Assembly: GCA_965637545.1 (NCBI GenBank)
Contig: OZ281495.1
Location: 4,278,001 to 4,342,000 of the forward strand
Length of the DNA stretch: 64,000 nt
Source of the DNA: Phallusia mammillata
Taxonomy: Eukaryota
Direction of reading: 5' to 3'
Part shown: piece after piece, positions 12,001-15,000 of the stretch
Position numbering within the stretch: the first letter of the stretch is position 1
How the letters are laid out: each line of letters opens with the position of its first letter
Made by a program: the position numbers

Positions 12001-15000
12001 TGGTGAATTATTCTGGGTTTTTGTGGGTTTTTGTCTTTTCGTTCGAGGAATCGCTGGTTTTTACTAAAAATCGGTTAAATAACGTTTAAAACAATCTTTT
12101 CCTAGTTGTGGCAAACTGCCAAACTTTTTTCTTTGCGAAACATTTTGCTAAAGTGAAATTGTAACGATGCTCTAAACATTGTGGAAAAATGATTCTACAA
12201 CAGGACTGTAGTGTTAGCACATTGGTTGAAATACTTGGTACATATAATTTAGATACATATAACTTTGATTTGTTTTGTCAACTGTATCGTAGGTGTCACT
12301 AGTGAACGATAAAGATTCTTGTGAGTCAGAGTACAAGGGATTTATCCTTTCTTCTTTTTTGCTGTTTTCTGCTTCAAAATGTGTTTTGTCATAAAATCTA
12401 GCAGTTAGAATTCCATCATGATTATTTTGTCTGATTTTACTGCTTCACGAGTAAAGATTTAAGACAAATATGTTCAAATATGGTTGCAACGAAAGAGAAA
12501 TGTGAATTGCCTCAGCTTTACGTTTTCAAATCAACTTTAGCTTAAAGAACAAAAGTTTGGGTATTTTGGTATATGGTGGTCACAGTGTTTGATGCGATAT
12601 CTGTGTGACAGCGAAAATGTTGCAAAATGTACATTTGGATGAAGTATTGCTATATTTGCATGAGGGTTAAAAAATGTGACAAACGAGCCCTTGCAACAAA
12701 AATATTTATCAGTAGTCCCGTAATATACAGACACTAGAGCCATTTTTACCTTGTGTTGTATATCTGTCAGAAGTTGTATCAGTGTTCATGCCACCATAAA
12801 TCGGGTTTATTCGTTCTTCCTTTTCGGATTTCTCCACTTAAAATACATAACGAGTTGACGCTGTATAGTTCGGTGCATTTACAAACGCACAACTTACTTT
12901 TGTTTTTGTCCGACATTTCGACTATTGCATGTTTTTGTTGAGACACTTCTTTGATGGTTTCATTTGTGCCAAAATAAAAGCGAAAAAGAAATGGCTAACT
13001 GTTAGTTAACCTTTTTGTCTTTTGTTTCACGATGTAACAAGTTATCAGACTCTGTTTCAACTAACATTCAGCAAAACCATTATTATTATAATCAGTGAAA
13101 TATTTGTCAAAGAGTAAAAGTGGGTTTTGCCGAAAGTTCAAATTATATGATTACTTTATACCATCTTATATTGCTATTTTCCCTGGTTGAGCTACTTTTT
13201 TTGGTAGCAACCTGATTGTTTTGGTGTGGAATTTCGCCGGCAGCAAAAGGGGATTGCTCCAATCACTAAGGAAACGAGTACAATGCATCCAACAACACTT
13301 GCAGCTATAATGACTGTTTGTTCGCCCGTGCCTGGTGGAATTGGATCAGCACCAGTAAGGTACATATGAGCAGTGAGGGACTCGTGAGGAAAGATACTGG
13401 ATTTAAGAGTGAGTTCAAATTTCTGGTCATGTGTAGATATCTGAAATTGTATGGAGTAACCTAACCTAAAGCGTACGAGCATATGGAAAATATTTGAATG
13501 ATAAATCTGAGTATACTTACCAGGTTTAAGTGAAAGGTCTGTAAAGTGCTTCCATCGTGAAACGAGATGTTGCAAGATGGACAATCAACTCTTTTGCCTG
13601 CAGATAGAGCAATAAAATGTACATCACAAGTTATTGACTTGTTAATGAACACATTGAATAGTTCCGTTTTTTACCATTAGCTGTCAAGATCCAATTATCC
13701 ACTGAAGGATTGGATAAAAAGTGAAATACACATTGTCCGAGTTGAACATCGTTGTGACTGCAATTAACAATGTTGCTAAACTCCGTAACTGCGGCAACTA
13801 ATTAAAGCAAAACAATTGATAAGCGCCCCATCGACTAAAAAGAAAGTAATTTTATCCACACTTACATAAAACATTCACAAGCACAATGCTATATGCGGTT
13901 CCAAAATTGTTGTTAATTAAACAAGTGTAATTTCCCCAGTCGAATCTTGTCCAATTCTTTAATTCCAGAATAGAAGTGTTTCTGTGAGTTTCCCGATCGT
14001 TGAGGGAAGTTATCCATTTAAATGACGTGTTCAGCTCATTTTGATACAAAACACTGCAGTTTAAATTTAAATCATCGCCAACCATGATTTGTTCTGAGTC
14101 GTGTAAGCCATGTCTTATTTCAGGAATTTCTACAAACAATAGCACTTAGATAATAGGTAATTTTGCTTTAGTTGCCATTAAAGAGACTTACTTTCGTTTT
14201 GTTGTACAACAATCAATTCCAGTGATTTGGAATTATCAACTCCATGAGCGTTTGCAGAAAAACAATAAACTGATTGATATTGGTTAATATGCTCGGTTAT
14301 GTTGCATAACCCAAAAGTTTTGTTTGCAAATTGAATTGAGCAGTTAGCTTGTGGATTAGCATCGCTCTCACAATACAACGTCACATCTTGATTTCCATTA
14401 AGTAGTAGGCGTGAACCGGTGTGAATGATGTCGGCGGACTCTTGTGGTGTTACAAGTGCATCATACGGTTTGTCTGAAAAGTGTAAAACAGAAAACAAAT
14501 AAGACAATCTGAGCTTTCGTGCAATCACAGACATAAAACAATTTCAATTCTTCTTACACAGAACAACAATGTCAACATATGCTGCTGTGTTTTGAAACAA
14601 ATCAGTCGTGTTGCAAAAATATCTTCCTGTTTCAAGTCGTGTAATATTCCGCACCAATAATAATGAATTTTCAGATGCGCTTAAGTTTAAAGGCGTAATC
14701 CATTGAAAGGTTGTTTTAAGTTCATTTTGGTAATCAACCTTACAACTCAACTTTAACGTTTGTCCTTCAATTGCAGAGGAAAGTTGTTGAATTTTTGCTA
14801 CTCCTGCCATGATAATTTAATATCAATGGGTAAACCTGATCAAATACATGACAAACTTACTTGATTCTACCACAATTATTTGCTTTCTTTTACTTTCCTG
14901 CGATCCAGCACAAGTTGAAACTTGACACGTGACATATCCTGATTGGTTGAAATAATGATTTGTGTCACATGACTTGGAAAGTATGATTTTATTGAATTCC

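What the first reader, a model, noticed from the sequence alone, without database searches (positions are those of the whole stretch)
12008..13331. Inverted paralog tail that keeps NPxY but appears to have lost its YAxV motifs (paired-receptor pattern)
Seen: - strand tail exons are homologous to the gene at 32-888 (KEERINPIY; KEERINPLY..DTYDTV in a 108-nt exon equal in length to exon 626-733). Exon 12963-12898 reads KHAIVEMSDKNK versus SYAQVDMTKKNK (Y>H) and has AA instead of AG at its acceptor. The exon from 12600 reads TIYQN...L*AKVDLK, with TAA (12544-12542) exactly at the Tyr of YAKV. Inference: selective loss of inhibitory-type motifs, as in paired activating/inhibitory receptors, or simply pseudogene decay.
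Basis: partly seen in the sequence, partly recalled or inferred. Interest (0 to 1): 0.65.

Follow-up and report, generated by a model that had tools for sequence, protein, structure and literature searches.

The report
Decaying paralog of ascidian tyrosine-motif receptor
The minus-strand gene is a diverged, probably recently broken copy of a sea-squirt cell-surface receptor whose tail is built from repeated tyrosine-motif exons, so its missing motifs reflect loss of whole exons and general damage, not a switch from inhibitory to activating signalling.

Summary
Gene B (minus strand, 15978-12008) and gene A (plus strand, 32-888) belong to an ascidian Ig-receptor family whose tails are repeats of exon-coded KEEKxNPLY...YAxV units (3 proteins at E<=1e-30; named: Ciona, Clavelina, Phallusia, Styela, all "uncharacterized").

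- **B4:** a clear counterpart of A4, and it keeps YDTV.
- **B1:** a real relic of the A1 3' end, with Y>H and no AG at the expected acceptor.
- **B3:** only weakly supported as an exon relic.

The damage is not confined to YAxV sites.
- The sushi-like exon has an in-frame TAA (15964-15962).
- The membrane-proximal exon has a 1-nt frameshift at an A6 run (13672-13667).
- B5 is frameshifted relative to A5.
- No N-terminal Ig exon was found.

The YAxV sites do not fit the ITIM consensus (1 of 44 sites in seven homolog tails; 0 in A or B). B's transmembrane segment has no charged residue.

Best reading: whole-unit loss in an old duplicate (dS about 0.7), followed by recent pseudogenisation or a null allele. 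The paired-receptor reading is not supported. No transcript or read data could be checked.

The parts
32..127 (+). Gene A tail exon A1 (NPLY + SYAQV), phase 1-1
   Evidence: hit by homolog tails (e.g. 61% to Ciona XP_078490936.1 residues 794-823)
205..297 (+). Gene A tail exon A2 (NPLY only; QAHC where other units have YAxV)
367..477 (+). Gene A tail exon A3 (NPLY + AYAMV)
626..733 (+). Gene A tail exon A4 (NPLY + TYATV), 108 nt
794..888 (+). Gene A last exon A5 (PKKPPRPP..STYNFYTN, stop 886-888)
15784..15978 (-). Gene B sushi-like 4-Cys exon (195 nt, phase 1-1) with an in-frame TAA at 15964-15962, four codons after the first Cys. An in-phase alternative AG at 15962-15961 would drop that Cys.
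   Evidence: 54.5% identity over 55 aa to Clavelina LOC143446606, E 1.6e-12; Pfam Sushi only E 0.16
15207..15578 (-). Gene B V-like Ig domain in two exons (15578-15433 and 15336-15207), open, AG/GT
   Evidence: (E 1.3e-22 group with Clavelina)
13866..15136 (-). Gene B Ig exons a (15136-14861), b (14803-14558), c (14473-14192), d (14144-13866). All are open, phase 1-1, AG/GT. c-d is an internal duplicate of a-b.
   Evidence: Ig_3 E 1.5e-7 and 2.5e-5; a-c 32%, b-d 41%
13521..13797 (-). Gene B membrane-proximal domain exon 1 (F-x-SNP motif). It is 277 nt where the phases require 2 mod 3, so the reading frame changes at the A6 run 13672-13667.
   Evidence: (13732-13634 matches Ciona protein, E 0.002)
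13212..13440 (-). Gene B membrane-proximal exon 2 plus TM segment (no charged residue) and start of the tail.
   Evidence: (E 1.5e-10 to Ciona, 4.2e-6 to Clavelina; alignments begin at 13419-13437)
12898..12963 (-). B1: relic of the 3' half of an A1-type unit (KHAIVEMSDKNK). It shows Tyr>His (CAT vs TAT), no NPxY, and no AG from 12994 to 12951. In-phase AGs lie at 12950-49 and 12947-46.
12750..12836 (-). B2: intact unit with NPIY; YTTQ where other units have YAxV
   Evidence: (52% to B4, E 3.9e-5)
12522..12600 (-). B3: possible relic of an A3-type unit. It has an AG acceptor in phase 1, TAA at 12544-12542, a second stop at 12520-12518, and 79 nt (not a multiple of 3). Homology is weak.
12264..12371 (-). 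B4: intact unit, NPLY + TYDTV, 108 nt, counterpart of A4
12008..12063 (-). B5: last exon. Its DNA is homologous to A5, but the Pro/Lys-rich part is read in another frame, so the stop comes early at 12010-12008.
   Evidence: (27 of 2000 shuffles)

Best explanation
Genes A and B are convergent (tail-to-tail) paralogs, about 11 kb apart, of an ascidian-specific single-pass Ig receptor family.

Architecture of the family:
- N-terminal Ig-like domain;
- sushi-like 4-Cys module;
- V-like Ig, then further Ig domains;
- a membrane-proximal domain with an F/Y-x-SNP motif;
- a TM segment;
- a long disordered tail made of phase 1-1 exons.

Each tail exon encodes one unit: acidic/basic lead, NPxY, 7-14 residues, acidic-x-YAxV, then a Lys-rich end.

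Inferred mechanism. The tail is a multivalent docking scaffold. NPxY serves PTB-domain adaptors, and phosphorylated YAxV serves SH2 proteins. The number of units sets the valency. Because every unit is a symmetric exon, units can be gained, skipped or lost without breaking the frame.

Gene B, in two steps.
1. It lost two of five collinear tail units as whole exons (B1, B3) while B2, B4 and the Ig exons stayed constrained.
2. As assembled, the gene now carries single-hit ORF-breaking lesions in exons that homologs always use: a TAA in the sushi-like exon, a 1-nt frameshift in the membrane-proximal exon and a frameshifted last exon.

Gene B is therefore most likely a recently inactivated pseudogene or a null allele. 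The missing YAxV motifs are a by-product of unit loss and decay, not a switch of signalling sign.

Shown: exon anatomy, lesions, family membership. Inferred: the order of events, binding partners and lack of function.
For: - **Family:** a profile of six tail exons finds 20 proteins at E<=0.001, 3 of them at E<=1e-30, each with 6 matched stretches. I looked at 7 of the 20: Ciona intestinalis XP_078490936.1, Clavelina lepadiformis LOC143446606 and CAK8677370.1, Phallusia LOC100180909, C. savignyi H2Y3Z3 and two Styela clava proteins.
- **Collinear ectodomain match of gene B to these:** sushi-like E 1.6e-12, V-like plus a/b Ig E 1.3e-22, membrane-proximal plus TM E 1.5e-10.
- **Lesions:** TAA 15964-15962; exon 13797-13521 is 277 nt and changes frame at A6; B5 is homologous to A5 but out of frame; B1 has no AG where expected and shows Y>H; B3 has two stops.
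- **5' end:** no N-terminal Ig exon was found (best E 0.27).
- **Tail divergence:** 0 of 11 homolog queries hit B's tail exons at E<=0.01, while they hit A1-A4.
- **Old duplicate with past constraint:** A4-B4 dS 0.70, dN 0.31. Flanking introns are barely above shuffles (42 and 39 of 60 against maxima of 41 and 40). About 1.35 kb of B's Ig exons has no stop and intact AG/GT.
- **Collinearity:** A1..A5 and B1..B5 keep the same order, and the spacing from the second to the fourth unit is 328 nt in A and 378 nt in B.
- **Motif roles:** NPxY as a PTB site and a neighbouring Tyr motif as an SH2 site in Draper/MEGF10/CED-1 (passages of PMC8092387).
Against: - No transcript, read-level or population data were available.
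- The frameshift lies in a homopolymer (A6) and could be an assembly error.
- The window also holds a 100% perfect 243-nt palindrome, which may itself be an assembly artefact.
- The sushi-exon TAA overlaps an in-phase alternative AG, so an in-frame transcript lacking the first Cys is possible.
- All phase 1-1 lesion-bearing exons could be skipped.
- dN/dS of 0.44 over 35 codons fits past constraint but cannot date its end.
- B3 may never have been an exon.
- The N-terminal domain is the most variable part of the family, so failing to find it is weak evidence.
- The binding partners of NPxY and YAxV are inferred from other receptors, not tested.
Confidence: 0.55

Rival explanations
1. Gene B is a working receptor with a remodelled, shorter tail (two NPxY, one YDTV, possibly a Tyr-less 51-nt B1). 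On this view the ectodomain 'lesions' are an assembly error (A6/A7) plus use of the downstream AG or skipping of the sushi-like exon. Signalling valency or quality would then differ from gene A, as the Botryllus FcoR3/4 alleles and splice forms differ in their Tyr motifs.
For: - About 1.35 kb of Ig exons is open with intact splice sites, despite dS about 0.7 to gene A.
- B2 and B4 are well conserved, while B1 and B3 are degraded. This implies exon-specific loss under continuing constraint.
- In-phase AGs exist for B1 and for the sushi-like exon.
- Family tails vary in unit number and motif content. Phallusia has 1 NPxY plus 4 N[VI]xY; Clavelina isoform X3 lacks the terminal YDDV.
- FcoR motif swapping by alleles and splicing is described in PMC12582321, section 13.
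Against: - It needs three separate rescues at once: a sequencing error, a cryptic acceptor or skipping that removes a disulfide Cys, and a tolerated frameshift in the last exon.
- The membrane-proximal exon cannot be skipped in frame (phase 1 to 0).
- No 5' Ig exon was found.
- Homolog tails do not detect B's tail exons at E<=0.01.
Confidence: 0.3
2. A and B are a paired inhibitory/activating receptor couple. A signals through inhibitory YAxV motifs, and B has selectively lost them to become activating or a decoy.
For: - Two of the three positions where A has YAxV are defective in B: H for Y in B1, and TAA in B3 if B3 is homologous.
- The genes are neighbours in one family.
Against: - YAxV sites have E/D/A at position -2, not I/V/L/S. 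There are 0 ITIM-consensus sites in A or B, and 1 of 44 Yxx[VIL] sites in seven homolog tails.
- B's TM segment has no charged residue, and its tail is not truncated.
- B keeps YDTV.
- NPxY was lost together with YAxV in B1 and B3, so the NPxY:YxxV ratio is 4:3 in A and 2:1 in B.
- A2 in gene A also lacks YAxV.
- Lesions lie outside the tail as well.
- Ectodomain similarity, the hallmark of paired receptors, cannot be judged because A's ectodomain is outside the window.
Confidence: 0.05
3. B3 (12600-12522) is not an exon relic at all but ordinary intron sequence. On this view the TAA 'at the Tyr of YAKV' is a coincidence of reading a short AT-rich stretch in one frame.
For: - Not detected by tblastn, protein HMM or nhmmer.
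- DNA alignment to A3 or A1 is no better than shuffles (1834 and 1991 of 2000).
- No match to homolog tails (scores 25-27, at the level of B5).
- The rank in the motif scan falls from 5 to 176 as columns are added.
- No NPxY, a second stop eight codons on, and a length that is not a multiple of 3.
Against: - It sits where the A3 counterpart should be, with similar overall spacing (328 vs 378 nt).
- It has a phase-1 AG acceptor and a GTAAAG right after the motif.
- xAKVDLK ranks 5th of 127,960 positions in the 7-column scan. Fewer than 0.02 such hits are expected in the 378-nt intron, before allowing for the four widths tried.
Confidence: 0.4

Closest known systems
Uncharacterized ascidian Ig receptors: Clavelina lepadiformis LOC143446606 (XP_076802439/40/42), Ciona intestinalis LOC104265904 (XP_078490936.1), Phallusia mammillata LOC100180909, Styela clava LOC144422153
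   Same: - Same order of modules.
- Same tail unit (KEEKxNPLY..E-x-YAEVDKKKK).
- Same Pro/Lys-rich end, as in A5.
- Sequence similarity E 1.6e-41 to 1e-9 for the tail profile and up to E 1.3e-22 for B's ectodomain.
   Different: - Gene B has an extra Ig-a/b pair (c-d), only two intact units instead of six, and ORF-breaking lesions.
- Identity to the best hit is only 30-55%.
- None of these proteins has a described function.
Botryllus schlosseri fester co-receptors (FcoR), PMC12582321
   Same: - Tunicate type I proteins with N-terminal Ig, Sushi, further Ig domains, a TM segment and a tail with several Tyr motifs (YxxI/L/V 'core-1'; paired [A/D]VYxxV 'core-2' at the C-terminal end, which the Styela homologs show as AVYAAV..AVYSEV).
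- Tail motifs differ between alleles and splice forms.
- Birth-and-death evolution in clusters (sections 10-13 and 15 read).
   Different: - No sequence comparison was possible. The accession list and alignments are in supplements I could not see, and a search with the Styela protein found only itself.
- NPxY is not mentioned in that paper (0 occurrences) or its preprint (0 occurrences).
- No ITIM or hemITAM here.
- FcoR genes are paired head-to-head with FF genes, which was not seen or testable here.
- The Sushi fold of B's exon is not confirmed.
Draper / MEGF10 / CED-1 engulfment receptors
   Same: The tail combines NPxY (a PTB adaptor site for CED-6/GULP) with a nearby Tyr-x-x-hydrophobic motif read by SH2 kinases (passages of PMC8092387). 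This is the closest 'works like' model for one tail unit.
   Different: - Unrelated ectodomain (EMI/EGF rather than Ig).
- One copy of each motif, not an exon-coded array.
- YxxL/ITAM rather than YAxV.
- No homology is claimed.
Vertebrate paired receptors (KIR, LILR, SIRP type; features recalled, not from a call)
   Same: Neighbouring Ig-receptor paralogs whose tails differ in Tyr motifs.
   Different: No ITIM consensus, no charged TM residue, no truncated tail. Ectodomain similarity is untestable.

Membership tests
Ascidian Ig receptor family with NPxY-YAxV repeat tail (Clavelina LOC143446606 type) | Tail of repeated units KEEKxNPxY .. YAxV .. Lys-rich, one unit per exon | tested here: met
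   Profile of six A/B exons: 3 proteins at E<=1e-30, each with 6 stretches. A1, A3 and A4 are hit back by the homologs. B2 and B4 are units.
Ascidian Ig receptor family with NPxY-YAxV repeat tail (Clavelina LOC143446606 type) | Sushi-like 4-Cys module followed by V-like Ig and a/b-type Ig domains | tested here: met
   tblastn of homologs to 15952-13867: 54.5% over 55 aa, E 1.6e-12; E 1.3e-22 for V-like plus a/b.
Ascidian Ig receptor family with NPxY-YAxV repeat tail (Clavelina LOC143446606 type) | Membrane-proximal domain with F/Y-x-SNP motif, continuous with the TM segment | tested here: met
   13732-13634 (FLSNPSVD) E 0.002, and 13419-13234 E 1.5e-10, to the Ciona protein. The domain is broken by a frameshift in B.
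Ascidian Ig receptor family with NPxY-YAxV repeat tail (Clavelina LOC143446606 type) | Signal peptide and N-terminal Ig-like domain | tested here: inconclusive
   No hit better than E 0.27 in 15900-19900. There is a signal-peptide-like ORF at 17073. Gene A's 5' part is outside the window.
Botryllus FcoR family | Sequence similarity to deposited FcoR proteins | not testable with these tools
   Accessions are only in SI Table S6 and supplements are closed. The search with Styela P0099 returned only itself.
Botryllus FcoR family | Sushi domain as second extracellular module | tested here: inconclusive
   Pfam Sushi E 0.16, 12.9 bits against a cutoff of 20.7. AlphaFold model pLDDT 56.1. Foldseek: 0 of 36 listed matches at E<=0.001 and none a Sushi domain. 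The Cys/Trp pattern fits.
Botryllus FcoR family | ITIM, hemITAM or core-1/core-2 Tyr motifs in the tail | tested here: inconclusive
   YxxV (core-1-like) is present, but there is no ITIM and no [ED][ED][ED]xYxxL. NPxY, the most conserved motif here, is not part of the FcoR description.
Botryllus FcoR family | Head-to-head pairing with a Fester-family gene | not testable with these tools
   No FF sequence was available. Upstream of B's 5' side, the next recognisable gene is a kinase on the + strand from 19770.
Paired activating/inhibitory Ig receptors | Inhibitory member carries the ITIM consensus (I/V/L/S)xYxx(I/L/V) | tested here: not met
   0 sites in gene A's visible tail. 1 of 44 Yxx[VIL] sites in seven homolog tails.
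Paired activating/inhibitory Ig receptors | Activating member has a charged TM residue and a short tail | tested here: not met
   B's TM segment (13329-13213 translation) has no D/E/K/R. The tail has four further exons.
Paired activating/inhibitory Ig receptors | Near-identical ectodomains of the two members | not testable with these tools
   Gene A's ectodomain lies beyond base 1 of the window.
Unprocessed pseudogene | ORF-breaking lesions in exons that are constitutive in relatives | tested here: met
   TAA 15964-15962 inside the sushi-like module; exon 13797-13521 out of frame. Caveat: the frameshift is in a homopolymer.
Unprocessed pseudogene | No expression / relaxed constraint | tested here: inconclusive
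   Expression is not testable. A4-B4 dN/dS 0.44 over 35 codons reflects the whole time since duplication.

The most novel reading that the evidence does not exclude
Gene B is not dead. It would be a live, tail-remodelled member of an FcoR-like receptor cluster in a non-botryllid ascidian. In such a cluster, death or skipping of symmetric tail exons (and Tyr>His in a retained mini-exon) tunes how many PTB and SH2 docking sites the receptor offers. That would be an exon-level route to signalling diversity, parallel to the allele and splice swapping of ITIM/hemITAM reported for Botryllus FcoR3/4. It would also make the NPxY-YAxV family the wider ascidian root of the fester co-receptors.
Probability: 0.15. 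Interest if true: 0.55.

Novelty: new member of a known kind. Interest (0 to 1): 0.3.

Why it matters
On its own, a decaying duplicate in a receptor gene family is ordinary. The context is the useful part.
- The window shows the exon anatomy of an ascidian-wide Ig receptor family that databases only call 'uncharacterized'.
- The family's tail is a modular array of one-exon NPxY-YAxV units.
- Its architecture resembles the Botryllus fester co-receptors implicated in allorecognition.

If that link holds by sequence, solitary and colonial ascidians would share this receptor type. Unit gain and loss, as seen between A and B, would then be one way such receptors diversify.

Tried and rejected
- **Word-based search with the Ig-d exon, longer proteins:** 41 candidates, none at E<=0.001.
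- **Kinase ORF search to place the organism:** 83 hits, the best 42% identical and unnamed, so no placement.
- **Search with Styela P0099 to reach named FcoR proteins:** only itself.
- **Unit HMM and nhmmer scans for B1 and B3:** neither found. nhmmer gave only E 61 near B1's acceptor. The six profile exons match the profile by construction.
- **N-terminal Ig exon of B:** no hit better than E 0.27. My reading of 16106-16044 as the end of that domain, with a frameshift near 16130, stayed a guess and is not claimed.
- **Fold of the sushi-like exon:** pLDDT 56.1, Foldseek matches meaningless.
- **Rfam and tRNA scans of the window:** nothing.
- **Literature:** two searches for a description of this family or of NPxY in tunicate Ig receptors found none. 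A third search returned only the Botryllus and Hydractinia allorecognition papers.
- **Hydractinia Alr and sponge or mollusc origins:** considered early from recall and dropped once the hits proved ascidian.
- **Rejected alternative splice 13675 to 13331:** it is in frame but deletes half of the membrane-proximal domain.
- **Not looked at:** 13 of the 20 profile hits (short matched stretches) and the unnamed kinase hits.
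Full report
**Scope.** The window has no N. GC is about 0.32-0.41, introns are 47-250 nt, and its receptor genes match only ascidian proteins, so I take it for tunicate DNA, not human.

**Observation.**

On the plus strand, gene A runs into the window with five tail exons: 32-127, 205-297, 367-477, 626-733 and 794-888. All are phase 1 with AG/GT.
- A1, A3 and A4 each carry NPLY and, 12-14 residues on, SYAQV, AYAMV or TYATV.
- A2 has NPLY but QAHC at the second place.

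- B1 12963-12898 (KHAIVEMSDKNK, AA at 12965-12964);
- B2 12836-12750 (KEERINPIY, then YTTQ);
- B3 from 12600 (TIYQN..L*AKVDLK, TAA 12544-12542);
- B4 12371-12264 (108 nt, NPLY..TYDTV);
- B5 12063-12008.

**Are the similarities real?**

- **B4 and A4** are clearly homologous: 76.3% over 114 nt, E 9.6e-18, and 63% over 30 aa, E 3.2e-9.
- **B2** is a unit: 52% to B4, E 3.9e-5, and its NPxY half scores with an HMM built without it.
- **B1** is a relic of the A1 3' end.
  - For: it is the best non-self match of 127,930 six-frame positions. It is the best of 801 donor-flanked sites, 24/36 against 19 for the next. Only 4 of 2000 shuffles reach its DNA score.
  - Against: general tools miss it (blastn E 0.19; nothing).
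  - The Tyr codon TAT is CAT. There is no AG between 12994 and 12951. The first AGs, at 12950-49 and 12947-46, are in phase, so a 51-nt Tyr-less mini-exon is conceivable.
- **B3** is weak.
  - Against: nothing, and shuffles do as well (1834 and 1991 of 2000).
  - For: its position, a phase-1 acceptor, a following GTAAAG, and a motif scan with the Tyr column masked. That scan ranks it 5th of 127,960 positions with 7 columns, but 33rd, 121st and 176th with wider windows.

**What the genes are.**

A profile of six tail exons, searched against 1.84 billion representative proteins, found 20 proteins at E<=0.001, 4 at E<=1e-10 and 3 at E<=1e-30. I examined 7 of the 20. All are ascidian and unnamed as to function: Ciona intestinalis, C. 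savignyi, Clavelina lepadiformis, Phallusia mammillata and Styela clava.

Their layout is: signal peptide, N-terminal Ig-like domain, a 4-Cys/Trp sushi-like module, a V-like Ig, further Ig domains, a membrane-proximal domain with F/Y-x-SNP, a TM segment, and a tail of up to six KEEKxNPLY..E-x-YAEVDKKKK units ending in ATYAEVNKPKKKKKPPPP.

Gene B aligns collinearly with them from 15952 to 13216. This gives the exon table:
- sushi-like 15978-15784;
- V-like Ig 15578-15433 and 15336-15207;
- Ig-a to Ig-d between 15136 and 13866, with c-d an internal duplicate of a-b;
- membrane-proximal 13797-13521;
- 13440-13212 including the TM segment.

Pfam sees Ig only in the b/d type exons.

**Lesions.**

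Besides B1 and B3:
- The sushi-like exon has an in-frame TAA four codons after its first Cys (15964-15962).
- The membrane-proximal exon is 277 nt where phase 1 to phase 0 needs 2 mod 3. Its homologous N-part (13732-13634) and its phase-matched C-part are in different frames, meeting at the A6 run 13672-13667.
- B5 is DNA-homologous to A5 (27 of 2000 shuffles), but its Pro/Lys-rich part is in another frame, so B ends early.
- No N-terminal Ig exon was found. There is only a signal-peptide-like ORF at 17073.
- Homolog proteins hit A's units but none of B's tail exons at E<=0.01 (0 of 11 queries).

**Against a long-dead gene.** A4 and B4 differ at dS 0.70 and dN 0.31 (35 codons), and the flanking introns are almost at shuffle level. 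So the duplication is old. Yet about 1.35 kb of B's Ig exons is open with perfect splice sites. B was therefore constrained for most of its history. B1 and B3 are much more degraded than B2 and B4. I infer two phases: early loss of two whole tail units in a working gene, then recent single-hit inactivation, or a null allele, or in part an assembly error at the homopolymer.

**The paired-receptor idea.**
- None of the YAxV sites in A or B fits the ITIM consensus. In seven homolog tails, 1 of 44 Yxx[VIL] sites does. The residues before the Tyr are acidic or Ala.
- B's TM segment has no charged residue, and its tail is not truncated.
- B keeps YDTV.
- The lost units would also have held NPxY, so the ratio of motifs barely changes (4:3 in A against 2:1 in B).
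- Motif turnover is a family trait. A2 lacks YAxV. Phallusia has 1 NPxY and 4 N[VI]xY but keeps YAxV. Clavelina isoform X3 lacks the terminal YDDV.

**How it probably works (inferred).** Each exon-coded unit offers an NPxY for PTB adaptors and an acidic-x-YAxV for SH2 proteins after phosphorylation, as NPxY and ITAM/YxxL do in Draper, MEGF10 and CED-1 (passages of PMC8092387). The symmetric exons let unit number change without breaking the frame.

**Closest described system.** This is the Botryllus FcoR family: N-terminal Ig, Sushi, two Ig domains, TM, a tail with YxxI/L/V and paired [A/D]VYxxV motifs, motif swapping by alleles and splicing, and birth-and-death clusters. I read sections 10-13, 15 and 28 of PMC12582321. 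The Styela homologs end in AVYAAV..AVYSEV, which fits 'core-2'. The link remains untested for four reasons:
- The FcoR accessions and alignments are in supplements I could not open.
- A search with the Styela protein found only itself.
- NPxY is not mentioned in that paper or its preprint.
- The Sushi fold of B's exon could not be confirmed.

**Not checked.**
- Transcripts, raw reads and other individuals.
- Gene A's ectodomain, which lies outside the window.
- The closed metagenome and viral contig collections.
- The bacterial/archaeal genome collection, which was not relevant and not used.

Noticed in passing
window 19770-21007, 26857-27445, 28717-29886, 36069-37028, 41631-42605, 49814-51333, 62126-63718 (+ strand): Tandem array of seven divergent Ser/Thr-type protein kinase genes. 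Each has a small upstream exon with the Gly loop and a large exon (Pfam Pkinase E 1e-27 to 1e-32). The best database relatives are only 42% identical and unnamed; the best solved relatives are NEK2, MARK and RIPK at E 1e-17 to 1e-14. Two copies look broken: 26857-27445 is in two frames, and 50314-51333 has one in-frame stop at 50848-50850.
   Followed up: partly
window 2264-2506 and 2518-2760: A 243-nt inverted repeat, 100% complementary, with an 11-nt loop. It is either a foldback element or an assembly artefact. If it is an artefact, it lowers trust in single-base lesions elsewhere in the window.
   Followed up: partly
window 15136-13866 (- strand): Gene B carries an internal tandem duplication of the Ig-a/Ig-b exon pair (a-c 32%, b-d 41% identity). 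The Clavelina and Ciona homologs have one pair.
   Followed up: partly
window 23523-23735, 36949-37179, 42602-42847 (- strand ORFs): Three similar ~70-aa ORFs (NKYFAYFSSYVNSNTV..) lie just downstream of kinase copies. They are probably part of the repeat unit of the kinase array or a repeated element.
   Followed up: no
window 17073-16990 (- strand): A short ORF starting MLFALACYLIYLS.. resembles the signal peptides of the homologs. It may be gene B's first exon, but no Ig-like exon could be recognised between it and 15978.
   Followed up: partly
P0105/P0085/P0104 (Clavelina LOC143446606 X1-X3); P0088 (Phallusia): The three annotated Clavelina isoforms differ only in the last tail segment, and X3 lacks the final YDDV. 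In Phallusia, four of five NPxY sites are N[VI]xY while YAxV is kept. So tail motifs in this family vary by splicing and by substitution, in both directions.
   Followed up: partly
window 888-12008: The 11 kb between the two convergent receptor genes holds no exon of the family (tblastn) and no Pfam match at or above a curated cutoff in the ORFs tried (5839-6084, 3734-4009, 6334-6621).
   Followed up: partly
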